A stretch of DNA of 64,000 bases from Acidobacteriota bacterium (lineage in GTDB: Bacteria > Acidobacteriota > UBA890 > WLXD01): assembly GCA_965205505.1 (NCBI GenBank), contig CBDBHB010000009.1, positions 3,103,851-3,167,850 of the forward strand, read 5' to 3'. Made by a program: the position numbers and the translations under genes. This document shows, one piece after another, positions 1-36,171 of this stretch (position 1 is its first letter; each line of letters starts with the position of its first letter). The notes beneath the pieces are model-generated. The model did no database searches and had not been told where the DNA came from. It saw nothing but the letters and a program-made list of their open reading frames with translations.

Positions 1-1919
1 TTGCCATCGGTGGCTCGCTGCTCGCCGCCGGAACCGTTAGCGCATCACCGGCCGTGCCTGGAACGTCAATAGAGCAGACAGCGGTGTCCTACCCGGCGAC
101 CTGGAAGGTCGGCGACTACTACCCACCCAGGCTCACGGGCATGCGCGGCAGCCACCCCGGCTCCTTCGAGGCGGCGCATGCGGTGCGTGACGGCAAGCGC
201 TACGACAACGTCACCGACGTCGACGAGACCTATGACCTGATCGTCGCCGGCGGTGGGCTCAGCGGGCTGGCGGCCGCGTACTTCTTCAAGAAGGCGCTTC
301 CGGAGTCGAAGATTCTGATTCTCGACAACCACGACGACTTCGGTGGCCACGCCAAGCGCAACGAGTTCGAGGTTGATGGCCGTACCGTTGTCACCTACGG
401 CGGCACGGTGTATCTCACCGGGGCCTATACGCACGAGGGCGAAACACTCCTGCGCGACATCGGTCTCGACTGGGATCGTTTCAACAACAACACCGCCTCC
501 AGCCGTGATCTATACGAGGGCATGGGCCTTCAACGCGGCGTGTTTTTCGATCGGGAGACCTTTGGCGAGGACCACCTCGCTATCGGCGAACCCCGATCCG
601 GGGCCAGCGCTGCGGACTGGGAGCAGTTCCTCGCCAGTTCGCCGCTGTCGACGGCGGCGAAGCGCGACATCACGCGCCTATATACCGAGAATGCTGATTA
701 CCTGCCTGACCTCGGTCGGGAGCAAAAGATTGAGAAACTGCGCCGCATGAGCTATCAGGACTACATCCTCAACGTCGTCGGCGTGACGGTGGATGTGGTC
801 CCCTATCTCCTGAAGCGGACCCTCGGCGGTCCCAACGGCGCTGCCGGCATTGATTCGCTCAACGCGTATGCGGCGTTCCGGCACAACTCGCTCCCCGGGT
901 TAAGCGGCCTTGGACTCGGGGATCGTCCGGATCGCAGCTGGCTCGGCGACACCCACAACCCCCTCGAGGGTATCCACTTCCCCGACGGCAACGCCGGACT
1001 CGCACGCCTGATGGTGCGGTGGCTGAACGCCGACGCGCTGCCGGGTAACACGATGGAGGACTCGGTCACCACGCCGGTGCGCTACGAGACGCTGGACCGG
1101 CCCGACAACGACGTCCGCATCAGGCTCAACAGCACCGTGATCGACGTCACCCACATGGGCGAGCGGCGCACCGCAAACGAGGTAGCGCTCACCTACGTGA
1201 GCGGTGACAAAGCGTACCGGGTACACGGTAGCACCTGCGTGCTGGCCTGCTACAACGCTGTCATTCCCCACCTGGTGCGGGATCTTCCGCAGGATCAGAA
1301 GGAGGCGCTCCACATGGCGGTGCGCACCGCCCGGGTATACACCAACGTGCTAATCCGCAACTGGCGGGCGTTCCACGAGCTCGGCCTCAACGGCATCCAC
1401 TGTCCAGGTGGATTCCATCAGAGCATGACCCTCGACTGGTCGACGAAGATCGGCGACTATGGCTTTCCCGAGTCACCCGACGAACCCATCGTGGTGCGCA
1501 TGAACCGCGATCCGATCATGCCGGGCCTCAATGCTCGCGACCAGTTCCGCGCCGGACGCGAAGACATCCTCGCGACCTCGTTCGAGGACTTCGAGCGCAA
1601 TATCCGCGATCAGCTCGACCGCGCCCTCGGGGCGAGCGGCTTCGACGCCGCCGACGACATCCTGGCGATCATCGTCAACCGCTGGCCGCACGGCTACGCC
1701 GGTGCCGCCAACGACCTCTACGATCCCGACTGGGGCTACGACGAGCCACCGTGGGTGCAAGGACGCAAGCGCTTCGGCCGCATCACGATCGCCAACTCCG
1801 ACGCCGCCGCCATATGCCTGACCCAGGCGGCGTTCGACCAGGCGCATCGGGCGGTGAACGAGCTGCTCACCGACGTGCTGCGCCCGGAGTTTCAGTACCC
1901 GTGGGCGGAGCGGACCTGA
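1..1919 (+). CDS. SpdH-like (spermidine dehydrogenase family) FAD-dependent oxidoreductase, copy 1; 5' end lies outside the window
   Basis: Frame is open from the window edge (AIGGSLLAAGT matches the leader of copy 2). Motifs: YYPPRLTGMRGSH, GGGLSG FAD motif, LDNHDDFGGHAKRNEF, HFPDGNA, NRWPHGY. Confidence 0.85.
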   Translation, partial: AIGGSLLAAGTVSASPAVPGTSIEQTAVSYPATWKVGDYYPPRLTGMRGSHPGSFEAAHAVRDGKRYDNVTDVDETYDLIVAGGGLSGLAAAYFFKKALPESKILILDNHDDFGGHAKRNEFEVDGRTVVTYGGTVYLTGAYTHEGETLLRDIGLDWDRFNNNTASSRDLYEGMGLQRGVFFDRETFGEDHLAIGEPRSGASAADWEQFLASSPLSTAAKRDITRLYTENADYLPDLGREQKIEKLRRMSYQDYILNVVGVTVDVVPYLLKRTLGGPNGAAGIDSLNAYAAFRHNSLPGLSGLGLGDRPDRSWLGDTHNPLEGIHFPDGNAGLARLMVRWLNADALPGNTMEDSVTTPVRYETLDRPDNDVRIRLNSTVIDVTHMGERRTANEVALTYVSGDKAYRVHGSTCVLACYNAVIPHLVRDLPQDQKEALHMAVRTARVYTNVLIRNWRAFHELGLNGIHCPGGFHQSMTLDWSTKIGDYGFPESPDEPIVVRMNRDPIMPGLNARDQFRAGREDILATSFEDFERNIRDQLDRALGASGFDAADDILAIIVNRWPHGYAGAANDLYDPDWGYDEPPWVQGRKRFGRITIANSDAAAICLTQAAFDQAHRAVNELLTDVLRPEFQYPWAERT

Positions 1920-2065: not shown

Positions 2066-2078
2066 CTGGAGGTACACC

Positions 2079-4094
2079 GTGAACACGACTGACCGCCAGC
2101 TCGGCATGGATCGTGACATCACGCGGCGCGATTTCCTCAACGGCACCAGCATCGCGATCGGTGGCTCGCTGCTCGGCGCCGGAACTGCCGGCGCATCACC
2201 AGCCGTACCCGGAACCACGGCAAAGCAAGCGGGGCTGCCCTACCCCAAGACCTGGGAAGTGGGTGACAACTACCCACCCAGGCTCTTGGGCATGCGCGGC
2301 AGCCACCCGGGCTCCTTCGAGGCGGCGCATGCCGTGCGTGACGGCAAGCGCTACGACGACGTTACCGACCTCGACGAGACCTATGACCTGATCGTCGTTG
2401 GAGGCGGCCTCAGCGGGCTGGCGGCCGCCTACTACTTCAAGAAGGCGCTTCCGGAGTCGAAAATTCTGATTCTCGACAACCACGACGACTTCGGCGGCCA
2501 CGCCAAGCGCAACGAGTTCGAGGTCGACGGCCACACGGTGGTGACCTACGGCGGCTCCGTGTACATGACCGGTGCCTATACGCCCGAGGGTCTGACGATG
2601 CTCCAGGACATCGGCCTCGACTGGGACCGATTCAACAGCACCACTTCCACTAGCTACGACCTGTATGGAGATGGCTACGGAGGAGTGGGCAAGATGGACC
2701 TTCAGGCCGGGGTGCTCTTCGATCGCGAGACCTTCGGGGAGGATCACCTTGCCGTCGGTGAGCCGCAGGGCCGCGCCAGCGCCGCCGATTGGGAGCGCTT
2801 CCTCGCCGGGGCACCGCTCTCGCCGCAGGCCAAGCGCGACATCGTTCGTCTGTACACCGAGAACGCCGACTATATGGCGGGCCTCAGTCGAGAGGAAAAG
2901 ATCGCGAAGCTGCGCCGCATGAGCTATCAGGACTACATCCTCGACGTCGTCGGTGCGACGCCGGACGTGGTTCCCTACTTCCTGAAGCAGACGCTGGGGG
3001 GCCCGAATGGCGCCGCCGGCATCGATTCGCTCAGCGCCTACGTGGCGTTCCGGCACAACTCGCTCCCCGGGCTCCGTGGCCTCGGGCTCGGGGATCGTCC
3101 GGCTCGCAGCTGGCTCGGCGACACGTACAACCCACTCAATCGTCTCCACTTCCCCGACGGCAACGCCGGCCTCGCACGCCTGATCGTGCGCTGGCTCAAC
3201 GCCGCCGACGCGCTGCCCGGCCATACGATGGAGGACTCGGTTACCACACCGGTGCGCTACGAGAGGCTGGACCGACCCGATGACGACGTCCGCGTCAGGC
3301 TCAACAGCACCGTGATCAACGCTACCCACGTGGGCGATCGGCGCACCGCAAGCGAGGTAGCGGTCACCTACGTGACCGGCGACACGGCGTACCGGGTGCG
3401 CGGCAGCACCTGCGTGCTGGCCTGCTACAACGCCGTCATTCCGCACATCGTGCGGGATCTGCCGCAGGAGCAAAAGGACGCGCTCCACATGGCGGTGCGC
3501 ACCGCCCGTGTCTACACCAACGTCCTCATCCGCAACTGGCGGTCATTCGTCAAGCTCGGCATCAACGGCGCCCACTGCCCGGGGAGCTTCCACCAGTTCT
3601 TCAGCCTCAGCTGGACCACCCGGATCGGCGACTACGACTTTACCGAGTCGCCTGATGAACCGATCGTGGTGCGGATGAATCGCGATCCGATTGCGCCGGG
3701 CCTGAACGCACGCGACCAGTTCCGCGCCGGCCGCGAGAACATCCTCGCAACCTCGTTCGAGGACTACGAGCGCAACATCCGCGATCAGCTCAACCGCGCG
3801 CTGGGGGCGGGTGGCTTCGACGCTGCTGACGATATCCTGGCGATCATGGTCAACCGCTGGCCGCACGGTTACGCCGGTGCCGCCAACGAGCTCTACGATC
3901 CCGACTGGGGCTACGACGAGCCACCGTGGCTGCAGGGACGCAAGCGTTTCGGCCGCATCACGATCGCCAACTCCGACGCTGCCGCCATATGCCTGGCCCA
4001 GGCAGCATTCGACCAGGCGCATCGGGCGGTGAGCGAGCTGCTCACCGACGTGCTGCGCCCGGAGTTCCAGTACCCGTGGGCGGAACGGACCTGA
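2079..4094 (+). CDS. SpdH-like FAD-dependent oxidoreductase, copy 2, Tat signal
   Basis: ITRRDFLNG Tat motif; same core motifs as copy 1; C-terminus PEFQYPWAERT. Confidence 0.88.
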   Translation: MNTTDRQLGMDRDITRRDFLNGTSIAIGGSLLGAGTAGASPAVPGTTAKQAGLPYPKTWEVGDNYPPRLLGMRGSHPGSFEAAHAVRDGKRYDDVTDLDETYDLIVVGGGLSGLAAAYYFKKALPESKILILDNHDDFGGHAKRNEFEVDGHTVVTYGGSVYMTGAYTPEGLTMLQDIGLDWDRFNSTTSTSYDLYGDGYGGVGKMDLQAGVLFDRETFGEDHLAVGEPQGRASAADWERFLAGAPLSPQAKRDIVRLYTENADYMAGLSREEKIAKLRRMSYQDYILDVVGATPDVVPYFLKQTLGGPNGAAGIDSLSAYVAFRHNSLPGLRGLGLGDRPARSWLGDTYNPLNRLHFPDGNAGLARLIVRWLNAADALPGHTMEDSVTTPVRYERLDRPDDDVRVRLNSTVINATHVGDRRTASEVAVTYVTGDTAYRVRGSTCVLACYNAVIPHIVRDLPQEQKDALHMAVRTARVYTNVLIRNWRSFVKLGINGAHCPGSFHQFFSLSWTTRIGDYDFTESPDEPIVVRMNRDPIAPGLNARDQFRAGRENILATSFEDYERNIRDQLNRALGAGGFDAADDILAIMVNRWPHGYAGAANELYDPDWGYDEPPWLQGRKRFGRITIANSDAAAICLAQAAFDQAHRAVSELLTDVLRPEFQYPWAERT

Positions 4095-4188: not shown

Positions 4189-6183
4189 ATGAGCGCGAAA
4201 GACCGAGAGCTTGGGATGGACCGGGACATCACCCGGCGGGACTTCCTCAACGGGGCGAGCATCGCGATCGGCGGGAGCGCCCTCGGTTCTAGCAGAATCG
4301 CGGGTACTTCAACGAAAGCGGTGACAGCAAGGCCTTCGGGCGGCGCGCCTACGCAGCCCGGCGAGTACTACCCGCCGCGGCTGACTGGGATGCGGGGCAG
4401 CCATGAGGGCTCCTACGAGGTGGCGCACGAGATGCGCTACGGGAAGACCTGGGGCAACGCCGAGGACACCGGCGAGCGCTACGACTTGATTGTCGTCGGG
4501 GGCGGGTTGAGCGGTCTGTCGGCGGCGTATTTCTTCCGCAAGGCGTTGCCGGCGGCGCGGATTCTGATTCTCGACAATCACGATGACTTCGGGGGGCACG
4601 CGAAACGCAACGAGTTCGAGGTCGACGGCAAGCTGGTGATCGGCTACGGCGGCACGATGATGATCCATGGCGCCAACAGCTACCCGCATGAGGCCAAGGC
4701 GCTGCTGGAGGACATCGGGATCGACAAGCCGCGGTTCCTGAAAACAACCGCGCGCGATCGGAGTATCTACCGCGAGATGGGGCTCCAGGCGGGCATCTTC
4801 TTCGACAAAGAGACGTTTGGCTCCGACCACCTCGCGGTCGGTGATCCAGCTGGCTGGGGAGCGGTTCGTAGCACGCTCACATGGACGCAATTCCTTGCCG
4901 ACACACCGCTTTCCGATGGCGTGAAGCGCGACATAGCGCGTGCCTACGATGACAAGACCGACTATCTGGCCGGTTTGACCTCCGAGGAGAAGATCGCGCG
5001 ACTACGGAGGATTAGCTACCAGGACTACCTGCTGAAGGTCGTCAAAGCGGATCCCGGCGTCATGCCGTTCTTCATGCGCCGTGCCGAAGGCGGCTCCAAC
5101 GGTGCCGCCGGGATCGACTCCTACAGTGCCTGGGGCGCGTTTCGGTCCGGTTGGCTTCCGGGCTTCGATGGGCTCGGCCTCGAGCGGCCGCCCCAGAGCT
5201 GGCTCGGCCCGGGGAACGACTTCGGCGACGACATCCATTTCCCCGACGGCAACGCCGCTGTGGCGCGACTGATCGTAAGGTGGTTGATTCCACGCGCCCT
5301 TCCCGGCACGACGATGGAAGATTCGGTGGCGACGCCAGTCAACTATGCTGCCATCGACGACAGCGGCAGCCCGGTTCGGATTCGCTTGAACAGCACGGCC
5401 GTCCACGTCAGCCACGTCGGCGAGCGGCGCTCCGCAGGCGAGGTTGAAGTGACCTATGTGCGCGGCGGCAAGGCGCACCGGGCACGCGGCGCCACCTGTG
5501 TAATGGCCTGCTACAACGCCATGATCCCGTATCTCTGTCCCGACTTTCCCGAGGAACAGAAGGCGGCGCTGAAGATGGCCGTACGCCAACCGCTCGTCTA
5601 CACCAGCGTCATGGTGCGCAACTGGCGAGCGTTCCACGAACTCGGTATCAACAGCTTCTACGGCCCGGGTTGCTACCACGGCAGTGCGATGCTGGACATG
5701 GGACGAAGTCTTGGGGGCTATACATGTGCGCGCACGCCTGACGACCCACAGCCCCTTCACCTGCAGCGAATGCCGGCCAACAAGCCCGGCCTTCCGGCTC
5801 GGGACCAGTTCCGGGCTGGGCGAGAGGAGCTGCTGGCCACGTCGTTCGAGTACTTCGAGTACCGCATCCGCGACGAGCTCGGACGGGCCCTGGCGGGCGG
5901 CGGCTTCGACCCTGCCGAAGACATCGGGGCGATCACCGTCAACCGCTGGCCGCACGGTTACGCGGGCGGCGCCAATGACCTTTACGATCCGGACTGGGGC
6001 TACGACGAGGTCCCCTGGGTCGTAGGCCGGAAGCGCTTCGGCCGCATCGCCATCGCCAACTCGGACGCCGCCGCCACCAGCCTGACGCACGCCGCCATGG
6101 ACCAAGCGCATCGCGCCGTTCAGGAGCTCCTCGGTGACGTGATCAGACCGGAGTTTCAGTATCCCTGGGCTGAGCGGACCTGA
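4189..6183 (+). CDS. SpdH-like FAD-dependent oxidoreductase, copy 3, Tat signal
   Basis: ITRRDFLNG, GGGLSG, DNHDDFGGHAKRNEF, NRWPHGY, C-terminus PEFQYPWAERT. Confidence 0.88.
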   Translation: MSAKDRELGMDRDITRRDFLNGASIAIGGSALGSSRIAGTSTKAVTARPSGGAPTQPGEYYPPRLTGMRGSHEGSYEVAHEMRYGKTWGNAEDTGERYDLIVVGGGLSGLSAAYFFRKALPAARILILDNHDDFGGHAKRNEFEVDGKLVIGYGGTMMIHGANSYPHEAKALLEDIGIDKPRFLKTTARDRSIYREMGLQAGIFFDKETFGSDHLAVGDPAGWGAVRSTLTWTQFLADTPLSDGVKRDIARAYDDKTDYLAGLTSEEKIARLRRISYQDYLLKVVKADPGVMPFFMRRAEGGSNGAAGIDSYSAWGAFRSGWLPGFDGLGLERPPQSWLGPGNDFGDDIHFPDGNAAVARLIVRWLIPRALPGTTMEDSVATPVNYAAIDDSGSPVRIRLNSTAVHVSHVGERRSAGEVEVTYVRGGKAHRARGATCVMACYNAMIPYLCPDFPEEQKAALKMAVRQPLVYTSVMVRNWRAFHELGINSFYGPGCYHGSAMLDMGRSLGGYTCARTPDDPQPLHLQRMPANKPGLPARDQFRAGREELLATSFEYFEYRIRDELGRALAGGGFDPAEDIGAITVNRWPHGYAGGANDLYDPDWGYDEVPWVVGRKRFGRIAIANSDAAATSLTHAAMDQAHRAVQELLGDVIRPEFQYPWAERT

Positions 6184-8421: not shown

Positions 8422-8456
8422 CTCCGGTCTCCTGGTTGCGGCGGAGTTGTTCGAGG

Positions 8457-10358
8457 CTACTTCAGCCCGTTTGCCAACATCAGCTCCTGGACGGCTCGAT
8501 CCGCCTGATCGATGGCGACGTTGGTGTACGCCGCCGCGCCAGCGTCGGCGTTGGCGATGGCGATCTTTCCGAAGGGCTTGCGGCCGAGCACGTGCGGACG
8601 CTCGGCATCGGGCACGTCCGGGTCGGCAAGCGTATCGTAGGTGTAGGCATAGCCGTGCGGCCACCGGTTGGCGGTGATCGCCAGGATGTCCTCGACCGGG
8701 TCGAAGCCGCCGCCCGCGAGGGCGCGCGTCAGCTGATCACGAATCTCCAGCTCGATGGTCTCGAACGGGGTCATCAGCATATCGAGCATGCCGGCGCGCT
8801 GCTGGTCCTTGCGCGGCAGGCCAGGCTCGTTGGGGTTGCGCACCATGTGCAACACGATGGGCTCGTCGGGAGACTGTGTGCATTCGTAGCCCCCCATCGA
8901 CACCGGATAGTCGAGGCTGCAGGAGCTGTGGTACATGGCCGGATAGCTGATACGGGAGACTCCCAGCTCCTTGAATGCCCGCCAGTTTCTGATGAACACG
9001 TTGGTGTACATCATCGGTACCTTCACCGCGTAGCCGAGCGCCTCTTTCTGCGTTTGCGGAAGGTCGGGGACCAGGTATGGAATAACGTGGTTCCAGCAGG
9101 CGAGCAGACAGTTGCGGGCTCGTACCCGCACCATCTTGCCGTCCCGCACGTAGGCGCCGCGCACCCAGTCGGCGTGTTCGGGCGCGCCCTCGTGCTCCAC
9201 CCGTACGACGGTGCTGTCGAGGCGCAGCCGCACCGTAGCCCCTTGCTCGTCGAGGCGGTCGTAGCGCAGCGGGGCTTTCAGCACCGACTGCATGTCGTGG
9301 TCGCCGGGCAGCGCGGCGGGAACCAGCCGGTTGATCAGCAGGCGCGCTATGGTGGCGTTGCCGTCCGGGAAGTGGAAGCGGTAGGCCCGGCTGCCCGGCC
9401 AGCGCGGCTCGAGCCCGAGGTCGAGGCCGTCGAATCCGGGCGCTCCGCCCTTCGCCGCCTCCAGCGCCGGCAGCGTATCGACCCGCTTGTTGTTTCGGTA
9501 GCCGCGGCCGAGGAAGAACTTGATCGCCTCCGGGCTGACCTTTGCCACCTCGAGCAGGTAGTCCTGGTAGCTCGTCCTGGCGAGGCGGGCGCGCTTTTCG
9601 ACGCGGCCCACGCCGGCCATGTAGTCGCCGTTGCTGGTGTGGATCCGGATCAGATCCTGGCGCGCCTGCTCCGAGAACGGTGCTTTGCGGAAGAACTCCT
9701 CCCAGGACGCGTCTCCCGGCCCGACCACCAGCCGGTCGGCGCCGAAGGTCTCGCGATCGAAGAAGGTCGCCGAGCCCAACCCCGCGTAGACATTGCTGTC
9801 GACAAACTCGCCAGCACGCGCGACCTCGATGCCCAGATCCCGCACCAGAGCCTTGGCAGCATAGCTGTAGGGGAACGGTGAAACGATGCTCTGGGTGCCG
9901 CCGTAGCCGATCCAGGTCCGCTCCTTGTAGGTGAACTCGTTGCGCTTGGCGTGTCCACCGAAGTCGTCGTGGTTGTCGAGGATCAGAACGGTCTGATCGT
10001 TGCCGAGCGCTTGACGGAAGAAGTGGGCGGCCGACAGTCCCGAGAGCCCGCCGCCAACCACCACCAGGTCATAGACCTCGCCGGTGTCCACGGCGTCAGA
10101 CAAGCTCTCGTAGGCGCCGTCGCGCAGACGGTGCCCCGCCTCGAACGAGCCCTCGTGGCTGCCGCGCAGCCCGGTGAGGCTGGGCGGGTAGCTGGTAGCT
10201 ACACCCTCCGGCGTGAGGTTCGACCCTTTGAGCCCGCGCAGCGCGCTGCGTGTCGCCGCCCACGCGCCGACGCTGCCCACCGCGAAGCCGTTGACGAAAT
10301 CACGCCGCGTGATGCCGCGGCCCATGCCGAGCTGGCGTGCCTTGACCCGATCTACCAT
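8457..10358 (-). CDS. SpdH-like FAD-dependent oxidoreductase, copy 4 (divergent), Tat signal
   Basis: ITRRDFVNG, YPPSLTGLRGSH, DNHDDFGGHAKRNEF, NRWPHGYAY; lacks the PWAERT tail. Confidence 0.88.
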   Translation of the reverse strand: MVDRVKARQLGMGRGITRRDFVNGFAVGSVGAWAATRSALRGLKGSNLTPEGVATSYPPSLTGLRGSHEGSFEAGHRLRDGAYESLSDAVDTGEVYDLVVVGGGLSGLSAAHFFRQALGNDQTVLILDNHDDFGGHAKRNEFTYKERTWIGYGGTQSIVSPFPYSYAAKALVRDLGIEVARAGEFVDSNVYAGLGSATFFDRETFGADRLVVGPGDASWEEFFRKAPFSEQARQDLIRIHTSNGDYMAGVGRVEKRARLARTSYQDYLLEVAKVSPEAIKFFLGRGYRNNKRVDTLPALEAAKGGAPGFDGLDLGLEPRWPGSRAYRFHFPDGNATIARLLINRLVPAALPGDHDMQSVLKAPLRYDRLDEQGATVRLRLDSTVVRVEHEGAPEHADWVRGAYVRDGKMVRVRARNCLLACWNHVIPYLVPDLPQTQKEALGYAVKVPMMYTNVFIRNWRAFKELGVSRISYPAMYHSSCSLDYPVSMGGYECTQSPDEPIVLHMVRNPNEPGLPRKDQQRAGMLDMLMTPFETIELEIRDQLTRALAGGGFDPVEDILAITANRWPHGYAYTYDTLADPDVPDAERPHVLGRKPFGKIAIANADAGAAAYTNVAIDQADRAVQELMLANGLK

Positions 10359-10582
10359 CGTCCCCTCCTGCACAGATCTAATGGGCCCAGGCGCTCGCTG
10401 TCAACTTGGCCTGCTAGCGCGCCAGGCCGATCCAGGCTCCCCCCAAATCCTCTGTGAACCGGTTGTCTTTGCCGTTTGGCATCGGTAGAGTCCGGGCCGT
10501 CACTGTCAAACTGCAATTGGACAGGCGCATGCGCTCCGGCTGACGAACCCGATAGCCCGCCTGTCGAGGGAGGAACAACAAG

Positions 10583-24131: not shown

Positions 24132-24149
24132 CCAAAGCCTGGTTCGTCA

Positions 24150-25610
24150 TCAGTACGGTGCCTCGACATCGCCCATCTCTACGTAGACGCTCTTGAGCTG
24201 CGTGTAGTGATTGAGGGTGGTGAGGCTGTTCTCCCGACCGATGCCGGATTGTTTCGTGCCGCCGAACGGCATCTCGATCGGCGTGATGTTGTAGTTGTTG
24301 ATCCAACAAGTGCCGGCCTCCAACTGCGCCACCACTCGATGGGCGCGTTGAATGTCGCTGGTGAACACACCGGCAGCCAGGCCGTACATGGTGTCGTTGG
24401 CCCGTTCCACCACCTCGTCCTCGGTCTCGAAGGCGAGTACCGCCATCACCGGGCCGAAAATCTCCTCCTGAACGATCTGCATGTCGTCGCTGCACCCATC
24501 GAAGACGGTCGGTTCAACGAAGAAGCCGTTGGTCAGTTCCGGATCATCGGGCGGTCCACCGCCACACAGTAACTTGGCTCCATTCGCCTTACCGGTCTCG
24601 ATGTAGCTGATCACCCGGTCTCTGTGCTCGGCCGAGATCAACGCCCCGACGTGCGTCCCGGGGTCGAGTGGATCACCGATCCGCATCCGTCCGACGCGCT
24701 CCAGCAGACGATCGAGGAACTGACTGTGGATACTGCTCTCGACAAACACGCGTGTGCCGTTGGAGCAGATCTCCCCCTGGGTATAGAAGTTGGCCATGAT
24801 CGCCGCCGAGACGGCGTTCTCGAGGTTGCTGTCGGCGAAGATCAGCAGCGGCGACTTGCCGCCCAGCTCCATCGTGACGTGTTTGAGCGTACTGGCGGCA
24901 TCGGCCATGACGAGCTTCCCGGTCGCGACCTCTCCGGTAAGCGACACCTTGGCGATCCCTGCGTGGCGGGTGAGAAGCTGGCCCGTCCGCGCGTCACCCT
25001 GCACTATGTTGAACACACCATCCGGTACCCCGGCCTCGGTAAATATCTCCGCCAGCTTCGGGGCGGTGAGCGGCGTGAGCTCGGCCGGCTTGAAGATCAT
25101 CGCGTTGCCGCATGCCAACGCCGGCCCCGACTTCCAGCAGGCGATCTGCAACGGGTAGTTCCAGGCGCCAATACCGGCACACACCCCGAGAGGCTCGCGG
25201 CGCGTGTAGGCAAACGACGTGCCCAGATCGAAATGCTCGCCGTGCAGGCTGGCCGCAAGGCCGGCGTAATACTCGATACAGTCGGCACCCGATAGCACAT
25301 CGACGACCGAGGCCTCCTGAATCGGCTTGCCGGTATCCAGAACTTCCAGATGCGCCAACTCGTCGTTGCGCTGCCGCAACAGCGCCACGGCGCGGTTGAG
25401 GATCCGTCCGCGCTCCGCACCGGTCATCGTCGACCATTCCTCGAAGCCCGCGCGCGCCGCGGCTACGGCGCGATCCACGTCTTCGGCGCCGGCCTGTTGG
25501 ATGCTGCAGAGCACCTTGCCGGTGGCGGGATTGATGGTCTCGAACGACTCACCGCTGGTGGCGGCCACGTACTTTCCACCGATGTACAGCTGTTGATCAG
25601 CAATTGTCAT
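24150..25610 (-). CDS. betB: Betaine aldehyde dehydrogenase
   Basis: [56 protein letters not shown]. Confidence 0.88.
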
Positions 25611-25622
25611 CAGTGCGTCCCT

Positions 25623-26309
25623 TTACTCCGCCTCGACGAACTCATCGACCTCGTCGTCGGGCATTGCCCCGCCGTCGCTCGAGAGGAGCTCGGCCGGATA
25701 GTGCTCTGCCCAAACGGCGATGATCTCGTCCAGCGGCACATCCGCATAGTGACCACGGTCGTGCACGTATTCCATATAGCGATTGCCGTCACGGTCGGAC
25801 TGTTGGAACAACGAGTCGTTACGACCATCGAACGACATCGGCTCGACGTTGAAGCGCTCACAGAGTGAGGCGTTGAACGCCGGCGTGGCCTTGACCCACC
25901 GGCCGTCCAGGTACAGCTCCGCGTAGCCGTGGAATACGAACAGGTCGGTTTGCATCTCGCGCTTCAATCGCTCGCTGGCGAGATGGTTCACGACGTCGCC
26001 GAACCCCAAGCGACTAGGGATTCCGTGCACGCGCGCCGCTGCTGCGAGCAGCGTCGCTTTGCTGATGCAGAACCCGAACCCGTTCTCGAGCACGGCGCTC
26101 GCGCGCATACCCTCGACGGTTAGGTCGATCGTATAGGGGTCGTAACGGAAACTGTCCCGCACACGGTCGTGCAAGCCAACGGCCTTATCAATGTCAGTGT
26201 TCTCCAGGCCGACGCTCTCGCGAGCGAACTCGATGACCGCAGGGTGATCGCTGTCGATGAAAGGCGTCGCCACCGAGTATTGGTCGAATTGGCTGTGCTG
26301 CTCGCTCAT
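25623..26309 (-). CDS. Transglutaminase-like family protein
   Basis: GFCISKA (Cys), FHGYAEL (His), WVKATPAF. Confidence 0.82.
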   Translation of the reverse strand: MSEQHSQFDQYSVATPFIDSDHPAVIEFARESVGLENTDIDKAVGLHDRVRDSFRYDPYTIDLTVEGMRASAVLENGFGFCISKATLLAAAARVHGIPSRLGFGDVVNHLASERLKREMQTDLFVFHGYAELYLDGRWVKATPAFNASLCERFNVEPMSFDGRNDSLFQQSDRDGNRYMEYVHDRGHYADVPLDEIIAVWAEHYPAELLSSDGGAMPDDEVDEFVEAE

Positions 26310-27119
26310 GCGATCACTCCCTGGCCTAGACCGCGTATCTGGTCGATGTATTCCTGCGGAAACACCATATTCGGCGCGCAGTCATAGCTGAACACGGCGA
26401 TCATGCGCGGCCTGGATCCAACGCCTATTTCGGTCACTCGATGAATCGACTCATCGCCCCTGAACAGGGTAAACGTGCCCGCCTGTATCGCCGGGCGCTT
26501 GGCGAGCTGTTCTGGTCGCGCGAAGATGTCGGCTAGCGCCTCGTAGTTCTCGTTGCCCTCGTCGCGAACGTAGGGAACATATTCGAACTCGCCGCCAGAG
26601 TCGGCCTCGCTCAGCAGCAGAGAGAATACCGCGGCATTGCCGTCGAAGTGCCAGCCGTTGCAATCGCCCGGGCCGCCCACGTGCACGGTGAGTGCCAGAT
26701 GCGGGCAGGCGCTTCGAAACAGCGTCTCGTACCCGAGCACCTGTCGTACGAACTCGGTCAGATGCTCGGAAAGGTACAGCTGCCGGATAAGGCTGTCGTT
26801 GGGAATCTGATGGTTCAGAACCTGATGATAGCGGCAGTCGTGCGTTGCAGTTCGCGGATGGCCCGGCGGCCATTCCATGTCGTCTGCGTCGTAAGCGGGG
26901 CGCGCGCGGTCGAACCGGAACGCTTCACCGCGGAGGGCCCTCCACTTCTGCGACCATACGTCGCACAACGTCGGGTCGGACGAACCCCGGCAACAAGCAG
27001 AGCGCGCCCTCGTCCAAGTCGGCGCCGCACTCGGCGACCAGGGCGCGCATCCGATGGCTCTCGGGCTCGTCGAGCGGGTAGCGGTCGAAATCCAGCAGTT
27101 GTCGCAGCGCACTGTCCAT
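26306..27119 (-). CDS. 2OG-Fe(II) oxygenase (HalD/BesD-like fold, HxD type), frameshift near 26940
   Basis: N-terminal part MDSALRQLLDFDRYPLD is in one frame; C-terminal part with GWHFD, GGEFEYVP, LFRG..SIHRVT and R.IAVFSY is in another. Confidence 0.72.
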
Positions 27120-27238
27120 CGGGCCTGTCTCCCGTGGTAGGTTTCGTTCTCGGCCGGCCCAGACATTGGACGTTCGGAAAAACGCGAGCAAGCGCCGTGT
27201 CGGCGATCCAGGCGCGTAAGGGTGCCGTAGGAGACAAG

Positions 27239-28690
27239 ATGAACGACAAGTCGGGACATTCTGGTGATCGCAGCAACGCCTCCAAGGTAAGCCGGCGCGA
27301 CTTCGCGCGCTCGTCGGTGGTTGCGGGCGCCGTGGCAGTGACTCTCTCCACCCCGCTGCGTGCCAACACCGTCGAAGCGGCAGGCCGGAGTCTCGAGCAA
27401 GGGGGCGGCAGATTCCCGGATGGCTGGAGTCCGGGCACGACCATCCCCGCTAAGTACTACCTGGACGAGGAGATCTACCTCAAGGACGAGGCGATCATCA
27501 AAGACAATCTCTGGTTGCTAGCCGATCACGAGAGCCGCATTCCCGACGCCGGAGACTACTTCGTTTTCGCGTACGGGCGTGGCGACAGCATCCTCGTGGT
27601 ACGGAACAACAAGGGAATGGTCAACGCGTTTCACAATGTCTGTCGCCATCGCGGATCACGTCTCTGTCGTCACGATGCGGACTCGGTTCCGGCCGATCCG
27701 CGTCTCTCCGTCAAGCAGCTGGGCCAGGCAGGCAGCTCCCCGGTGTTTCGCTGCCCATACCACGCCTGGACCTACGACATCGATGGCAGCCTGATCTACG
27801 CCTACGGCATGCAGGACGACTTCGATCCGGCCGCAAACGGCTTGCGGCGATGCAATATCAAGACCTACGAGGGCCATATCTTCCTGCACCTCGGCGAGGG
27901 TGAAGCGCCCGACTTCGAGCCAACGGCGCAGAGCATCCGTCGGATTTGCCGGCGTCACGGCACGGCGCAGCTCAAGGTCGCGGCGCGACGCCAGTACCCA
28001 GTGCGCGGCAACTGGAAGCTCGCCGTGGAGAACTTCCTCGAGTGCTATCACTGCGGACCGGCTCATCGGTCGCTGGTGACGGCCCATGACTGGGACTATG
28101 CGCTCTCACCCGCACAACGCGCCGAGATCGAGGAGGAACTGGATACCTGGGTCACTGGCGAGGCTCGCCCCGGAGACGGCGGAGGAGGAATGGGCGGTGG
28201 CAGCATCGCCGACGGATTGCGAAACAACGTTGGCGTTGGGCGGGGCTTCCTCAATCCGGGCGTCCAGACCGGATCGCTCGATGGCAGGCGAGTGGCGCCA
28301 CTGCTGCCGACGTTCGACAAGGCAACGCATGGGTTCAGGGAAGCTGAGACCGGATGGTCGAGCGCCTACTGGGCCGCCTACGACGATCACGTCGCGATTG
28401 CGCGCTTCACACCGCGGGACGTGGAGCTCACCGACTGCGAGATCCTGTGGCTGGTGCATCCGGACGCGCAGGAGGGCCGCGACTACGATGTCGAAGATCT
28501 GATTGCCCTGTGGCACGTGACCATCCAAGAGGATATCTGGATCGTCGAGAACAACCATGCCGGTGTGCGATCGGGAGCATACGGAGCCGGACGCTACTCC
28601 ATTCATGAGACTTTCAGCGGGGGCAGCCCTGGAGGCTTCGTGCGCTGGTACATGGGGGTTCACCGTGGTGACGATCCCGGCCCGGTCTAA
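27239..28690 (+). CDS. Rieske non-heme iron oxygenase alpha subunit (GbcA/CntA-like) with twin-arginine leader
   Basis: SRRDF plus a hydrophobic stretch; NVCRHRG...CPYHAW; NWKLAVENFLECYHCGPAH; QED. Confidence 0.85.
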   Translation: MNDKSGHSGDRSNASKVSRRDFARSSVVAGAVAVTLSTPLRANTVEAAGRSLEQGGGRFPDGWSPGTTIPAKYYLDEEIYLKDEAIIKDNLWLLADHESRIPDAGDYFVFAYGRGDSILVVRNNKGMVNAFHNVCRHRGSRLCRHDADSVPADPRLSVKQLGQAGSSPVFRCPYHAWTYDIDGSLIYAYGMQDDFDPAANGLRRCNIKTYEGHIFLHLGEGEAPDFEPTAQSIRRICRRHGTAQLKVAARRQYPVRGNWKLAVENFLECYHCGPAHRSLVTAHDWDYALSPAQRAEIEEELDTWVTGEARPGDGGGGMGGGSIADGLRNNVGVGRGFLNPGVQTGSLDGRRVAPLLPTFDKATHGFREAETGWSSAYWAAYDDHVAIARFTPRDVELTDCEILWLVHPDAQEGRDYDVEDLIALWHVTIQEDIWIVENNHAGVRSGAYGAGRYSIHETFSGGSPGGFVRWYMGVHRGDDPGPV

Positions 28691-28797
28691 ACGTGGCGTG
28701 CCGGAGGCGCCTTCCCTACTGATGAAAGCTGCTGTAACGGAAACGGTGCGTTCACCGTTCGCGCCCTGCTAGTCCTGTAGCGCTGAGGAGTCACTGC

Positions 28798-29266
28798 ATG
28801 AAGAAGTCCGACCTCGACCTCGGGATGAATCGCCCGATCACCCGCCGCGATTTCCTCAACGGTGCGAGCGTCGCCGTTGGTGGCGTGGGCGCCATCGGCG
28901 CCGCTTCGATGCCGTCAGGCGGAGTCGACGCGACCGAAGCAGGCAGCACCCACCAGGGCCCGGGTCCCTTCGGCGACGAGTACTACCCGCCATCCGGACC
29001 GGGATATCGAAGCGATCACCGTCAACCGTTGGCCGCATGGTTACGCCGGAGCCGGAAACGATCTGTACGACCCGGAATGGAGCTACGACGAGGCGCCGTG
29101 GGTCGTCGGTCGCAAGCGCTTCGGTCGCATTACCATCGCCAATTCCGACGCGGCTGCAGTGTGTCTGACCTCGGCCGCCTTCGATCAGGGGCATCGCGCT
29201 GTTCAGGAGCTACTCACGGACGTCATTCGGCCTGAGTTCCAGTACCCCTGGGCGGAGAGAACCTGA
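28798..29266 (+). pseudogene. SpdH-like gene with a large internal deletion
   Basis: MKKS..ITRRDFLNG..EYYPP is joined out of frame at ~28992 to (D)PDRDIEAITVNRWPHG...PEFQYPWAERT*. Confidence 0.88.
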
Positions 29267-29464
29267 GCGGGATTCGGAGCATCCGGCTCCCGGGAGTGCC
29301 CGCGGAGATAAGCGCAAGGACGGGCACGCAGTCGTAGCGACGTGTAGTCGTGCTGACAGGAGCACCGGCCAAAACGCTTGGGCTCGCTGTGCGTTCGCAT
29401 TAGCTTAGTAGTGACAACGGAAAAAGCTCCCCTCGGCACTCGATTCACGAATGGAGAGTCGGCC

Positions 29465-30608
29465 TTGACCCTCGACGCCTCGCTACGTATCGCCGCTTTG
29501 GTGACGCTCACGCTGCTACCGGCCAACGCTGCTGCCCAGTGCCTCGTCTCGGAAGCCGACATCGTGAGCGGCGCCGCGCGCGACGCCATCCCTGCGCTGA
29601 CCAACCCGGAGACGATTTCCGCCGCCGAAGCCGACCTCCTCCTAGCACCCACCGACACGGTGCTCGGCGTGGTCCGAAACGGCGAGGCGCCCGAACGTCG
29701 CTGAGTCTATGGTCGCAGATGATGGTGAGCGGCATCTGCGTCGTTGACGATCTCGTGCCACCACAGAACGCGCATCGGATACGCTCGCCGGGTCGTACAT
29801 GATGAGGTTGTTGTCGAACAGTAGACCGGACGTACCGAAGATCATGTGCTGGCCGTCGAGGACGGGGTCGTATACCAAGCTGCTGCCCGGTGAGCGGGCA
29901 ATAGCTCACCGCGATCGGGACTGTTCACCAACCTCATCATGTACGACCGAACGTCGCTGAGTCGCCGAGGACGTCGGGTCGTACATCTCGCACCGGCCAA
30001 GTCTCTACCCTGTCACGGAGACCACATGGGCAGGCTGGAAGGCGATGCATCCCGACACCACGGCGATCAGCTTCGACACCGGCTACTCGCGCGACTACGA
30101 CCGCTATCCATACGGCGACTACGATACCGTCAGCAGTACACGGCTCCTTTTCCCTCACAGCTTCATCGACGACCGTCTCCCGCTCAAGGCGCTGGTACAC
30201 GGGATCGCGCACGACGGCACGGCGCGGGCCTATCCGCTCGACGATCTGACCGCCTCGGAGAGTCGCGTGGCGTTGAACGATCAGATCAACGGGCGTGCCT
30301 TGCTGGTGGTAGTCGACCGCGTCCGCGGTATGGTCGTCTCCTTCGATCGCCGGGTTCGATTCCGTAACAAGAAGGGAAAGTGGAAAACGAAGAAGTTCTT
30401 CTTCGATGTCGTCGATGGCGAAGGGTTTCCGTTTCTCCTCAAAGACCGCCAAACGGAGTCTACCTGGAACCTGCAGGGTGTGCCCGTCGGCGGTGAGCTC
30501 GTCGACAATGTGGAGGACGGAGGCCTGCCGCGAATCGCCGACGCATACAACGCGTTCTGGTTCGGCTGGGCGTCGTTTAATCGCGACACTCAGATCTACG
30601 AGCAGTAG
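29465..30608 (+). pseudogene. DUF3179-family protein with internally rearranged and inverted segments
   Basis: DAIPAL, TTW..WK..HPDT and AFWFGW..F are on +; AYP..L.WHEIVND and SYCPLTG/FGTSGLLFDNNLIMYD are on -. Confidence 0.75.
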
Positions 30609-30616: not shown

Positions 30617-31045
30617 TCAAACATCATCGGTGCTCAGGACGTCAGCGTCGGCTATGGCCAATTGCTGTCCGCTCCGTAGGCGGCGATAGTCGTCGCGATC
30701 GACGACCAACACCGGCAACTTGGTGTCGTAAAGCTCTCGGGCGATCATGGCCGCCACCAGGATGGTGATGTTGGGCTCCGGCAGAATCACGGCGGCGGGG
30801 CCGTTACCGAGCTGAATAGCGTCGGCCAGCGCGCCTGGGGAGCTGGTGCTGCCGCGCGTGCCCGGCATGACCAGGATTCTCCCGGCGACACATTCGCCAA
30901 GCTGTGGATGATGCTCATCGACGATGCGGCCGGATTTGGGATCGAGGCCTCCCCAGAAGCTCAGCGGCTCTTCCAGGACAAGCGTCTCACCTCCACACTC
31001 GCCGTCGAGGAGGATCTCGGTGGCGCGCAAGACCTCAGCAGCCAT
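30617..31045 (-). CDS. Aconitase X swivel-domain (small) subunit, DUF126
   Basis: PLSFWGG.DP.SG.I.D.HHP, GRILVMP..RGS.SS. Confidence 0.85.
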   Translation of the reverse strand: MAAEVLRATEILLDGECGGETLVLEEPLSFWGGLDPKSGRIVDEHHPQLGECVAGRILVMPGTRGSTSSPGALADAIQLGNGPAAVILPEPNITILVAAMIARELYDTKLPVLVVDRDDYRRLRSGQQLAIADADVLSTDDV

Positions 31046-32294: not shown

Positions 32295-32298
32295 TTGG

Positions 32299-32577
32299 CT
32301 AGTGGCCTGTAACAGGGGAATCGATAGCGGCGCAGGTGGGATTTGCGGGCGAGATCAAGGAAGGGTGAGGAAGGCGATGCCTTAGCCATCCTCGACGAGC
32401 CCTGACGCCGAGATCGCCCGCATATCGCTCCTGCCCTCCGGGTGGCCGCGGGACCGGCCACCTTCGGCGTCGCGGCGCCTCGACGATACACCCAGCATCG
32501 CCCTCGTCGCCGCTCCTACAATTCGCCCCGGTCGCGCGCGCCACAAACGTCACCGTACTTATGATCAGGAGCACTAG
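32299..32577. mobile_element. ~280-bp structured MITE-like element, copy A
   Basis: Bounded by CTAG on both sides, the right one being the glnT stop codon; imperfect TIRs CTAGTGGCCTGTAACA / TGATCAGGAGCACTAG; two inverted GGCGATG..ATC(G/C)TCGA hairpin motifs. Confidence 0.7.
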
Positions 32578-33908: not shown

Positions 33909-33921
33909 GGTCTCCACCGAT

Positions 33922-34204
33922 TTAGCAGGGTGCTCAAGAAAACTCTGGCGGGTCTGGTGCGTGGCTCTTGCTGGCCAGATCAAGGAAGAGCGACGATGGC
34001 GATGCCAGGGCGCATCGTCGAGGAGCTGTAACGCTGAGATCGTCGGCAACCCCAACGCCCTGAAGAGTTACGGGGTCTTGCGGCGATCTGCCTCGTTGAG
34101 CCCCCTGGACGATACAACAAGCATCGCCTGCGTCGTGCCGCCAACGGGCGAGAGAACCTTGCTTGGTCTGATCCGCGCCGCGTTCCCCGTTGCCAGCGCG
34201 CTAG
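33922..34204. mobile_element. ~280-bp structured MITE-like element, copy B
   Basis: Left end TAGCAGG...GGGTCTGG...GGCCAGATCAAGG resembles copy C; right end CTAG is the LytTR stop codon; same paired hairpin motifs. Confidence 0.65.
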
Positions 34205-36020: not shown

Positions 36021-36171
36021 CGTCCAGATCCGGTGCATTCCTAAGTTGACCTATTAGTCCCTAAGCATCAGTAGAGTCAGATAGTTACGGGTATTCGTCC
36101 ATCTTGCGTGTTCCCCGGACAATCCGCTACATTCCAGCCTGTAATGGTGGAATTAGAGGGGGATGCATAAT

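What the first reader, a model, noticed from the sequence alone, without database searches (positions are those of the whole stretch)
27239..29266. Rieske oxygenase with a twin-arginine leader, an extended Rieske loop and no reductase, followed by a Tat flavoprotein gene
Seen: the N-terminus is SKVSRRDFARSSVVAGAVAVTLSTPLRA. The CxH and CxxH ligands are 34 residues apart and the insert contains a second CRH. No ferredoxin, reductase or beta subunit is in the window. The next co-oriented gene is an SpdH-like Tat flavoprotein, now a relic. Known: GbcA/CntA/Stc2-type oxygenases are cytoplasmic, have roughly 15-20 residues between ligand pairs and need an NAD(P)H reductase. Inference: this may be a periplasmic amine/betaine oxygenase supplied with electrons by exported flavo-, quino- or cytochrome proteins, which would be an undescribed electron route.
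Basis: partly seen in the sequence, partly recalled or inferred. Interest (0 to 1): 0.72.

Follow-up and report, generated by a model that had tools for sequence, protein, structure and literature searches.

The report
Exported Rieske oxygenase lacking a reductase
This intact gene encodes an iron-sulfur oxygenase of a type known only from the cytoplasm, yet it and its whole family carry a conserved export signal and an extra loop beside the iron-sulfur cluster, so it probably works in the periplasm on electrons that do not come from NAD(P)H.

Summary
Window 27239-28690 (+) encodes an intact 483-aa Rieske non-heme-iron oxygenase alpha subunit. Its closest solved relatives are 3N0Q, stachydrine demethylase Stc2 and carnitine oxygenase CntA. 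It has an SRRDFAR twin-arginine leader and a 17-residue insert between the two Rieske ligand pairs.

Both traits belong to a family. They co-occur almost perfectly across 270 homologs, arose once on the tree, and are under purifying selection. This Acidobacteriota genome holds 17 full-length paralogs, all with leader and insert, and 27 SpdH-like genes.

No FNR/ferredoxin-type reductase lies near any copy, and the genome has no beta subunit. The recurring direct neighbour is a Tat-exported homolog of spermidine dehydrogenase SpdH (FAD plus surface heme b, both heme histidines conserved). The copy downstream of this gene is a deletion relic.

Export and a periplasmic, NAD(P)H-independent electron supply are the best reading. 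The donor is not shown. Gammaproteobacteria pair SpdH-like genes with leaderless relatives, so that link may be metabolic rather than redox.

Seven literature searches and two recent reviews gave no description of exported Rieske oxygenases. This scan noted the same family earlier in other genomes.

The parts
27230..27233 (+). Shine-Dalgarno-like GGAG, 5 nt before the ATG
   Evidence: Read directly from the sequence.
27239..28690 (+). Intact CDS of the Rieske non-heme-iron oxygenase alpha subunit (483 aa, P0001)
   Evidence: Translation. Pfam Rieske plus Ring_hydroxyl_A. AF2 model with pLDDT 86.4. Foldseek top hits 3N0Q, Stc2 and CntA. dN/dS of 0.12-0.16 against orthologs.
27239..27364 (+). 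Twin-arginine leader, residues 1-42. It has a variable n-region, S18-R19-R20-D-F-A-R24, 16 uncharged residues (S25-L40), then R41-A42.
   Evidence: Sequence. RR invariant in 80 of 80. Family-wide conservation. dN/dS of 0.09-0.20 for residues 14-42. Disordered in the model. TIGR01409 gives no hit on this copy, but 19.4 bits (cut-off 16.7) on a paralog.
27512..27802 (+). Rieske [2Fe-2S] domain (residues 92-188), with ligands C135, H137, C172 and H175
   Evidence: Pfam PF00355. The four ligands are invariant in 110 of 110.
27674..27724 (+). 17-residue insert (D146-G162) between the two ligand pairs, carrying the conserved D-x-R-L-S-V-x-Q-L-G motif
   Evidence: Gap in the alignment to 3N0Q. S, V, Q and G are invariant within the clade. 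pLDDT is 87-88. dN/dS is 0.05-0.16.
27968..28609 (+). Catalytic domain (residues 244-457), with invariant N258-W-K, E268, H271, H276 and D432
   Evidence: Pfam PF00848. Invariant columns. Alignment to 3N0Q.
28798..29266 (+). Relic of the cognate SpdH-like flavocytochrome gene. The Tat leader plus about 66 codons are joined out of frame to the last 90 codons. About 500 codons are deleted.
   Evidence: tblastn of the intact L001 ortholog. TIGR01409 scores 23.5 bits on the leader.
29378..30608 (+). DUF3179 gene broken by frameshifts. It is intact (364 aa) at the same place in the related genome G118.
   Evidence: Pfam matches to profile positions 1-37 and 141-292, in two frames. Intact ORF at L103:6118-7212.
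1..1919 (+). SpdH-like paralog. It starts 163 bases before the window and ends a tandem RO-RO-SpdH-SpdH-SpdH cluster that begins upstream of the window.
2079..4094 (+). Intact Tat-leader SpdH-like flavocytochrome (671 aa)
   Evidence: PDB 7D9F SpdH at E 7e-126. TIGR01409 scores 22.4 bits.
4189..6183 (+). Intact Tat-leader SpdH-like paralog (664 aa)
8457..10373 (-). Intact Tat-leader SpdH-like paralog (638 aa)

Best explanation
The gene encodes a functional Rieske monooxygenase of the beta-subunit-less Stc2/GbcA/CntA lineage. These enzymes perform oxidative C-N cleavage of quaternary or N-methyl amines.

The cofactor-loaded protein is most likely exported through the Tat pathway to the periplasm of this diderm Acidobacteriota bacterium. 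It may be released there, or held on the membrane by an uncleaved leader. In the periplasm it would hydroxylate an amine-type substrate with O2.

The periplasm contains no NAD(P)H. The two electrons needed per turnover would therefore come from exported heme-bearing proteins, not from an FNR/ferredoxin reductase. The candidate encoded beside it most often is an SpdH-like flavocytochrome b, which oxidises an amine at FAD and releases electrons through a surface heme b. Quinohemoprotein PQQ dehydrogenases and small c-type cytochromes are the other recurrent neighbours. The conserved 17-residue insert beside the Rieske cluster would be the surface remodelled for such a donor.

Shown here: the gene is intact and under selection; the catalytic residues are conserved; leader and insert are coupled and arose once; reductase and beta subunit are absent; SpdH-like genes are linked.

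Inferred: export, the donor's identity, the role of the insert and the substrate class.

This copy has lost its cis-encoded SpdH-like partner. If it needs one, it must use one of the 27 paralogs in trans.
For: Enzyme identity:
- Pfam Rieske plus Ring_hydroxyl_A.
- Best PDB sequence hits are 3N0Q (5e-52), Stc2 3VCA/4QUP and CntA 6Y8J.
- The AF2 model (pLDDT 86.4) matches the same entries in Foldseek.
- C135, H137, C172, H175, E268, H271, H276 and D432 are invariant in 110 of 110.

Leader:
- The sequence is SRRDFAR followed by 16 uncharged residues.
- RR is invariant in 80 of 80.
- All 17 paralogs in this genome carry it. The one leaderless GbcA-like copy has a normal loop.
- In 270 homologs the counts are 114 long-loop with leader, 113 normal-loop without leader, 24 long-loop without leader, 4 normal-loop flagged as having a leader, and 15 with no Rieske motif found. 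The 24 are mostly truncated gene calls, and the 4 are false RR matches inside the mature domain.
- The long-loop group is one side of a branch with support 100, on a tree built without the leader and insert columns.
- The leader core has dN/dS of 0.09-0.20 and the whole gene 0.12-0.16.
- TatC is present.

No classical partner:
- No Fer2/FNR reductase or ferredoxin among 119 neighbours in this genome or 79 in other genomes.
- No Fer2 or small Rieske ferredoxin lies within 20 kb of any copy (with the coordinates).
- The genome has only 2 NAD_binding_1 ORFs and no Ring_hydroxyl_B.

Heme-protein neighbours:
- An SpdH-like gene lies within 700 bp of 6 of 17 ROs and within 10 kb of 10 of 17.
- One is present in 12 of 21 Tat-clade loci from other genomes.
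- It is intact directly downstream of the ortholog in L001.
- It is homologous to PaSpDH at 1e-126 to 1e-142.
- Both heme b histidines are invariant in 90 of 90. PaSpDH passes electrons from FAD to a surface heme b (PMC12564564, passages read).
- PQQ dehydrogenase fused to cytochrome c occurs in L007, L008 and L091. Small cytochromes c occur next to the RO in L005 and L016.
Against: - No signal-peptide predictor was available. TIGR01409 gives no hit on this protein's own N-terminus, and gives hits below its cut-off, or none, on five of the six other RO leaders tested.
- The c-region reads LRA and is not a clean AxA, so cleavage is uncertain.
- In Gammaproteobacteria a Tat SpdH-like gene lies beside a leaderless, normal-loop relative (L025, L028, L029, L052). 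The linkage can therefore exist without any possible direct electron transfer.
- 15 of the 27 SpdH-like paralogs are more than 10 kb from any RO, and 7 of the 17 ROs have none within 10 kb.
- SpdH-like genes occur in 25 of 201 sampled genomes of the phylum, but the exported RO in only 5 of 201. One of those five gave no SpdH-like match with this query.
- Orthologs of this gene in G118 and G069 have no SpdH-like neighbour.
- Thermodynamics: PaSpDH heme b transfers electrons from about -0.14 V vs Ag/AgCl (PMC12564564). Oxygenase-type Rieske clusters are usually near -150 mV vs SHE (recalled). Unless this cluster is shifted, the step would be uphill.
- The leaderless relatives also lacked an adjacent reductase, so the absence of a reductase nearby is weak evidence on its own.
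Confidence: 0.58

Rival explanations
1. The oxygenase is exported, but its link to SpdH-like genes is purely metabolic: the two enzymes act on successive steps or on related amine substrates. Its electrons then come from something not identified here, such as a membrane quinol-linked protein or an unlinked periplasmic carrier.
For: Gammaproteobacterial loci pair a Tat SpdH-like gene with a leaderless RO, together with a class III aminotransferase, an AraC regulator and transporters. SpdH-like genes are five times more widespread than the RO in the phylum sample. Orthologs exist without an SpdH-like neighbour. Neighbourhoods are rich in periplasmic hydrolases and TonB-type receptors, as in nutrient-processing islands.
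Against: No alternative donor family is conserved next to the RO. The heme-bearing neighbours (SpdH-like, PQQ dehydrogenase with cytochrome c, small cytochromes c) are the only recurrent redox proteins. The highly conserved insert sits at the cluster, which suggests a dedicated protein partner.
Confidence: 0.2
2. The protein stays in the cytoplasm. The RR stretch would be a non-exporting N-terminal extension, for example for membrane association or chaperone binding. The enzyme would use an unlinked cytoplasmic reductase, as some Rieske oxygenases do.
For: TIGR01409 does not score this copy's leader. Leaderless relatives also lack an adjacent reductase. Two FNR-type ORFs and 13 Fer2 matches exist elsewhere in the genome.
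Against: The invariant RR, the F-A-K/R motif, an uncharged h-region, a variable n-region and a low-complexity linker make up the anatomy of a Tat signal. A paralog's leader passes TIGR01409. The genes sit among Tat-leader proteins. Two FNR-type ORFs would have to serve 17 paralogs.
Confidence: 0.1
3. The enzyme is exported but needs no external reductant. It might perform a four-electron oxidation or desaturation in which the substrate supplies all electrons. Or it might run on a peroxide shunt, with the Rieske cluster acting only as an internal relay.
For: No dedicated donor is universally encoded next to the gene. 7 of the 17 paralogs have no SpdH-like gene within 10 kb, and many loci have no heme protein nearby.
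Against: The full Rieske-to-iron relay (E268, H271, H276, D432) is invariant, as in reductase-dependent relatives. The conserved surface insert at the cluster argues for a docking partner. From recall, no such self-sufficient chemistry is established for this lineage.
Confidence: 0.07

Closest known systems
Stachydrine (proline betaine) demethylase Stc2 (PDB 3VCA, 4QUP-4QUR) and the uncharacterised 3N0Q protein
   Same: These are the best sequence and fold matches: E 5e-52 to 4e-47 and Foldseek E 1e-31 to 3e-33, at about 29% identity. They share the Rieske plus catalytic domain layout, the N-W-K...E-C-Y-H-C...H motif and the lack of a beta subunit.
   Different: The solved proteins start at about residue 66 of this one, so they have no leader or linker. 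They have 17 fewer residues between the ligand pairs. They are cytoplasmic and NAD(P)H-reductase dependent (established knowledge, recalled).
Glycine betaine monooxygenase GbcA (NCBIfam NF058607) and carnitine monooxygenase CntA (PDB 6Y8J)
   Same: GbcA is the best NCBIfam model, matching over residues 66-472. CntA is a clear homolog in sequence and fold. Both belong to the quaternary-amine Rieske monooxygenase group.
   Different: The score is 212.9 bits against the equivalog cut-off of 670. This protein has a leader and an insert. No GbcB/CntB-type FNR-plus-Fer2 reductase lies near any copy.
Tat-exported Rieske proteins of cytochrome bc1/b6f and of arsenite oxidase (AioB)
   Same: Each is a Rieske [2Fe-2S] protein with an N-terminal twin-arginine signal that is exported folded. 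This genome's own bc1-type Rieske protein has such a leader. The Tat review PMC13673990 describes these proteins (passages read).
   Different: Those are small electron-transfer subunits with CxHxGC...CxCH motifs and no catalytic iron domain. The review contains the word 'oxygenase' zero times.
Spermidine dehydrogenase SpdH of Pseudomonas aeruginosa (PDB 7D9F-7D9J), for the neighbouring or relic gene
   Same: E 1e-126 to 1e-142 over the full length, with a Tat-type leader. Heme ligands His54 and His562 align to invariant H82 and H582.
   Different: Identity is about 40-45% by the printed alignment. This clade has a conserved C-terminal extension (...RPEFQYPWAERT) beyond the end of PaSpDH. There are 27 paralogs in one genome. 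The substrates are unknown. The copy next to this RO is a deletion relic.

Membership tests
Rieske non-heme iron oxygenase alpha subunit | Rieske [2Fe-2S] ligands CxH...CxxH | tested here: met
   C135, H137, C172 and H175 are invariant in 110 of 110. Pfam PF00355 scores 47.9 bits against a cut-off of 20.3.
Rieske non-heme iron oxygenase alpha subunit | Catalytic domain with 2-His-1-carboxylate iron site | tested here: met
   PF00848 scores 90.6 bits. H271, H276 and D432 are invariant and align to the conserved His, His and Asp of 3N0Q. Assigning them as iron ligands rests on homology, not on a structure with metal.
Rieske non-heme iron oxygenase alpha subunit | Overall fold | tested here: met
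   AF2 pLDDT 86.4. Foldseek probability 1.00 to 3N0Q, Stc2 and CntA, with target TM-score 0.74-0.83.
GbcA (NCBIfam NF058607 equivalog) | Score above the curated cut-off | tested here: not met
   212.9 bits against 670.
Stc2/GbcA/CntA-type quaternary-amine monooxygenases | Alpha-only enzyme, no beta subunit | tested here: met
   PF00866 gives 0 matches in the genome, which is 96% complete.
Stc2/GbcA/CntA-type quaternary-amine monooxygenases | Glutamate three residues before the first iron His (the bridging residue) | tested here: met
   E268 is invariant in the E-C-Y-H271 motif. That this Glu is the bridging residue is recalled from the CntA literature and was not read here.
Stc2/GbcA/CntA-type quaternary-amine monooxygenases | Dedicated NAD(P)H reductase (FNR plus plant-type ferredoxin domain) as partner | tested here: not met
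   None among 119 plus 79 neighbours. No Fer2 lies within 20 kb of any copy. The genome has only two NAD_binding_1 ORFs.
Stc2/GbcA/CntA-type quaternary-amine monooxygenases | About 16-19 residues between ligand pairs, and no signal sequence | tested here: not met
   34 residues and an RR leader.
Stc2/GbcA/CntA-type quaternary-amine monooxygenases | Substrate is a quaternary or N-methyl amine | not testable with these tools
   Context only. Conserved synteny with ALDH, TRAP transporter, AcnX and GS-like genes, and an OpuAC transporter near a paralog cluster.
Tat substrates | S/T-R-R-x-F-L-K-like motif followed by an uncharged h-region | tested here: met
   S18-R-R-D-F-A-R24 followed by 16 uncharged residues. 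RR invariant in 80 of 80, and F and A in at least 90%.
Tat substrates | Recognition by a curated Tat-signal model (TIGR01409) | tested here: inconclusive
   No hit for this copy. 19.4 bits (cut-off 16.7) for paralog L091:6407, 15.0 bits for L016 and 7.6 bits for L001. The SpdH-like leaders score 22-23 bits. SignalP and TatP were not available.
Tat substrates | Tat machinery present | tested here: met
   Two full-length TatC matches and one fragment.
Tat substrates | Demonstrated Tat-dependent export | not testable with these tools
   This needs an experiment.
SpdH-type flavocytochrome b (the downstream relic) | Full-length FAD domain plus both heme histidines | tested here: not met
   Only residues 1-~66 and 568-657 remain, in different frames. 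Intact paralogs and the L001 ortholog keep H82 and H582.

The most novel reading that the evidence does not exclude
A dehydrogenase-driven periplasmic oxygenase. An SpdH-like flavocytochrome b oxidises an amine at FAD. It hands the two electrons through its surface heme b directly to the Rieske cluster of the exported oxygenase, docking on the conserved 17-residue insert. Quinohemoprotein PQQ dehydrogenases or c-type cytochromes would do the same in other loci. O2-dependent C-N or C-H oxygenation would then run outside the cytoplasm with no NAD(P)H, paid for by a second substrate oxidation.
Probability: 0.25. Interest if true: 0.85.

Novelty: new variant of a known kind. Interest (0 to 1): 0.74.

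Why it matters
Every characterised Rieske oxygenase is a cytoplasmic enzyme fed by an NAD(P)H reductase chain. That requirement shapes both the textbook mechanism and all biocatalytic uses.

This monophyletic family has hundreds of members in the protein collections searched and is expanded to 17 copies per genome in one genus. It is built for export and has a remodelled surface at the cluster. If it is exported, an unknown way of delivering electrons to this enzyme class must exist, and oxygenolytic breakdown of nitrogenous compounds can begin in the periplasm of soil Acidobacteriota.

It would also suggest a physiological electron acceptor for SpdH-type flavocytochromes. The passages read name only cytochrome c and artificial acceptors for them. 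The claim can be tested directly with export assays, redox titration and reconstitution of a natural gene pair (P0003 with P0271).

Tried and rejected
- Complex prediction on the natural L001 pair (RO residues 69-476 with SpdH-like residues 66-657, both as alignments) gave no verdict. The score was 0.00 against a mark of 0.32, and the controls were not run. This counts neither for nor against binding. The monomer was used because of the 1000-residue limit, although the enzyme is expected to be a trimer.
- The TIGR01409 scan of N-terminal peptides was inconclusive for this copy.
- The 'second CRH' as an alternative or extra ligand pair was rejected, because H145 is not conserved.
- GbcA identity was rejected on score.
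- A periplasmic Rieske ferredoxin as donor was rejected. The two small Rieske proteins in the genome have no leader and lie more than 200 kb from any copy.
- A class IA FNR-plus-Fer2 reductase elsewhere in the genome was not found. Neither of the two NAD_binding_1 ORFs lies next to a Fer2 match.
- The Pyr_redox_2 protein in L003 sits beside a TPP enzyme and looks like a lipoamide-dehydrogenase type. It was seen in one locus only.
- Seven literature searches gave no paper describing an exported Rieske oxygenase. One candidate hit (bioRxiv 10.1101/2021.05.19.444901, passages read) refers to a Tat signal on an amidase, not on the oxygenase.
- ORFs under 150 aa were left out of the Pfam scans of this genome's neighbourhoods (119 of 126 selected ORFs scanned; the 7 dropped were SpdH-like). 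Small ferredoxins were therefore covered only by the genome-wide Fer2 and Rieske searches.
Full report
**What is there**

The ORF listed as 26648-28690 has its likely start at the ATG at 27239. GGAG lies five bases upstream. The product is 483 aa (P0001). Pfam finds a Rieske domain at residues 92-188 and the catalytic domain of ring-hydroxylating alpha subunits at 244-457. The best NCBIfam model is the glycine betaine monooxygenase GbcA, at 212.9 bits against a cut-off of 670, so the protein is a relative and not an equivalog.

By sequence, the closest solved structures are 3N0Q, stachydrine demethylase Stc2 (3VCA, 4QUP) and carnitine monooxygenase CntA. An AlphaFold2 model built on 110 aligned sequences has mean pLDDT 86.4. 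Residues 1-49 are disordered and the mature domain mostly scores above 90. Foldseek returns the same entries first. C135, H137, C172 and H175, and also E268, H271, H276 and D432, are invariant in all 110 sequences. The catalytic apparatus is therefore intact.

**The two odd features**

The N-terminus reads ...K-V-S18-R-R-D-F-A-R24, followed by 16 uncharged residues and then R-A. There are 34 residues between H137 and C172. The alignment to 3N0Q shows one clean 17-residue insertion, D146-G162. The 'second CRH' is present, but H145 varies (CRD, CRQ) in many relatives. I give it no meaning.

**Both features are family traits**

The search for homologous proteins returned 2425 hits. The 120 best are 47-99% identical and show the same leader and the same loop. 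I applied a simple rule to 270 homologs from two searches: RR followed within six residues by at least 13 uncharged residues. The counts were as follows.

| Loop | Leader by rule | Count |
|---|---|---|
| long | yes | 114 |
| normal | no | 113 |
| long | no | 24 |
| normal | yes | 4 |
| no Rieske motif found | - | 15 |

By inspection, the 24 long-loop proteins without a leader are mostly gene calls that start inside or after the leader, or fragments. Three have an obvious SRRDF leader with a shorter h-region. Three have loops of 29-31 residues and belong to other clades. The four normal-loop 'leaders' are RR pairs inside the mature domain.

A FastTree tree was built from 394 columns, with leader and insert columns excluded. 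It puts all 80 long-loop rows on one side of a branch with support 100, which means a single change. Within 80 clade members RR is invariant, and the insert carries invariant S, V, Q and G in a D-x-R-L-S-V-x-Q-L-G motif.

Between this gene and its orthologs in two related genomes, dN/dS is as follows.

| Region | dN/dS |
|---|---|
| whole gene | 0.12-0.16 |
| leader core, residues 14-42 | 0.09-0.20 |
| insert | 0.05-0.16 |

The leader is therefore translated and constrained. The generic Tat model TIGR01409 does not score this copy's N-terminus. It passes one paralog (19.4 bits against 16.7) and the SpdH-like leaders (22-23 bits). TatC is present.

**Organism and expansion**

The best foreign locus is an Acidobacteriota MAG at 82% identity. 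The window's genome is 5.98 Mb and 96% complete. It holds 17 full-length paralogs at 44-58% identity, plus two fragments. All 17 have leader and long loop. One leaderless 412-aa GbcA-like copy has a normal loop.

In a sample of 201 genomes of the phylum, only 5 have a match at E<=1e-100. Four of these are in this genus and one is in another family.

**Neighbourhood**

No FNR-type reductase, plant-type ferredoxin or Rieske ferredoxin was found among the neighbours scanned.

- This genome: 119 neighbour ORFs of at least 150 aa within 8 kb of the paralogs.
- Other genomes: 79 neighbours in Tat-clade loci.

Genome-wide, no Fer2 or small Rieske protein lies within 20 kb of any copy. There are only two NAD_binding_1 ORFs and no beta subunit.

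The recurrent neighbour is a roughly 650-aa Tat-leader protein homologous to Pseudomonas aeruginosa spermidine dehydrogenase SpdH (E 1e-126 to 1e-142). PaSpDH passes electrons from FAD to a surface heme b held by His54 and His562 (PMC12564564, passages read). Both histidines are invariant in 90 of 90 homologs.

This genome has 27 full-length SpdH-like genes. Six of the 17 oxygenases have one within 700 bp, and 10 of 17 have one within 10 kb. In other genomes, 12 of 21 Tat-clade loci contain one, often directly adjacent and co-oriented.

Other recurrent neighbours are:

- PQQ dehydrogenases fused to cytochrome c
- small cytochromes c (L005, L016)
- Amidohydro_3 enzymes
- M28 and S15 peptidases
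- sulfatases
- TonB-type outer-membrane proteins

**This copy's own partner is dead**

In the orthologous locus L001 the order is ALDH, transglutaminase-like and HalD-like genes on the minus strand, then RO and SpdH-like on the plus strand, then AcnX. In the window, the SpdH-like gene is reduced to its first ~66 codons joined out of frame to its last 90, which are 99% identical to L001.

Orthologs in G118 and G069 have no SpdH-like gene nearby. G118 has an intact DUF3179 gene there instead, and that gene is frameshifted in the window. The oxygenase is therefore kept under selection without a cis partner.

**Interpretation**

The leader's anatomy, its invariance and its coupling to a conserved insert at the cluster fit best with a Tat-exported, periplasm-facing Rieske monooxygenase that does not use NAD(P)H. 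So do the missing reductase and beta subunit and the setting among Tat-exported redox and hydrolytic enzymes. In solved relatives the cluster region is where redox partners dock (established structural knowledge, recalled).

The identity of the donor is open. The evidence against a direct SpdH-to-Rieske route is real:

- Gammaproteobacterial loci pair a Tat SpdH-like gene with a leaderless, normal-loop relative, plus an aminotransferase and transporters. This points to a shared pathway.
- SpdH-like genes occur in 25 of 201 sampled genomes, against 5 of 201 for the oxygenase.
- The reported working potential of PaSpDH heme b lies well above typical oxygenase Rieske potentials (the latter recalled).

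A complex prediction gave no verdict.

**Novelty**

Seven full-text searches found no description of an exported Rieske oxygenase. A 2026 Tat review contains 'oxygenase' zero times (passages). A 2025 Rieske oxygenase review contains 'periplasm', 'signal peptide' and 'twin-arginine' zero times (term counts). Subscription journals are not covered.

This scan noted the same family earlier in two other genomes. Those are AI notes, and they agree with what I tested independently here.

I class the finding as a new variant of a known kind. Export is about 85% likely on anatomy alone. I put the full best explanation at 0.58.

Noticed in passing
window 1-10373 and genome-wide: SpdH-like flavocytochrome genes are greatly expanded. 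There are 27 full-length paralogs in a 6-Mb genome. Four intact copies lie in the first 10.4 kb of the window, continuing a tandem RO-RO-SpdH-SpdH-SpdH cluster that starts upstream of the window.
   Followed up: partly
window 29378-30608: A DUF3179 gene with a lipoprotein-like N-terminus is split by frameshifts here. It is an intact 364-aa ORF directly downstream of the orthologous oxygenase in G118 (L103:6118-7212). The region 28.8-30.6 kb is decaying.
   Followed up: partly
G000:C9:2059140-2059433 (outside the window): A TatC fragment (profile positions 2-97 of 208, in a 139-aa open frame) lies about 0.8 kb from the RO-SpdH-RO-SpdH cluster at C9:2060262-2068061.
   Followed up: no
L001:10814-12784 and alignment A3: The acidobacterial SpdH-like proteins share a nearly invariant C-terminal extension (...D-V-I-R-P-E-F-Q-Y-P-W-A-E-R-T) that runs beyond the last aligned residue of P. 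aeruginosa SpdH. Its function is unknown.
   Followed up: no
window 22158-26306 (-) and 30617-34052 (-): The oxygenase is flanked by conserved synteny. On one side lie an Oxidored_FMN+Pyr_redox_2 flavoprotein, an aldehyde dehydrogenase, and transglutaminase-like and HalD-like genes. On the other lie the two AcnX subunits and a glutamine-synthetase-like gene. The arrangement is shared with G118 and partly with L001, and suggests amine, betaine or hydroxyproline-type catabolism.
   Followed up: partly
G000:C9:2062231-2068061 and C8:1167626-1169167: Three paralogs have an even longer Rieske loop, with 42-44 residues between the ligand pairs. Each is directly followed by an SpdH-like gene.
   Followed up: no
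L016:2916-4792: In a Chloroflexi MAG, the Tat-type oxygenase overlaps by about 30 bases a downstream 192-aa c-type cytochrome gene, and an SpdH-like gene lies upstream.
   Followed up: partly
window 36104-37312: An ORF with a phage-integrase central domain. Integrases and transposases also lie near several paralog loci (L098, L101, L092, L097).
   Followed up: no
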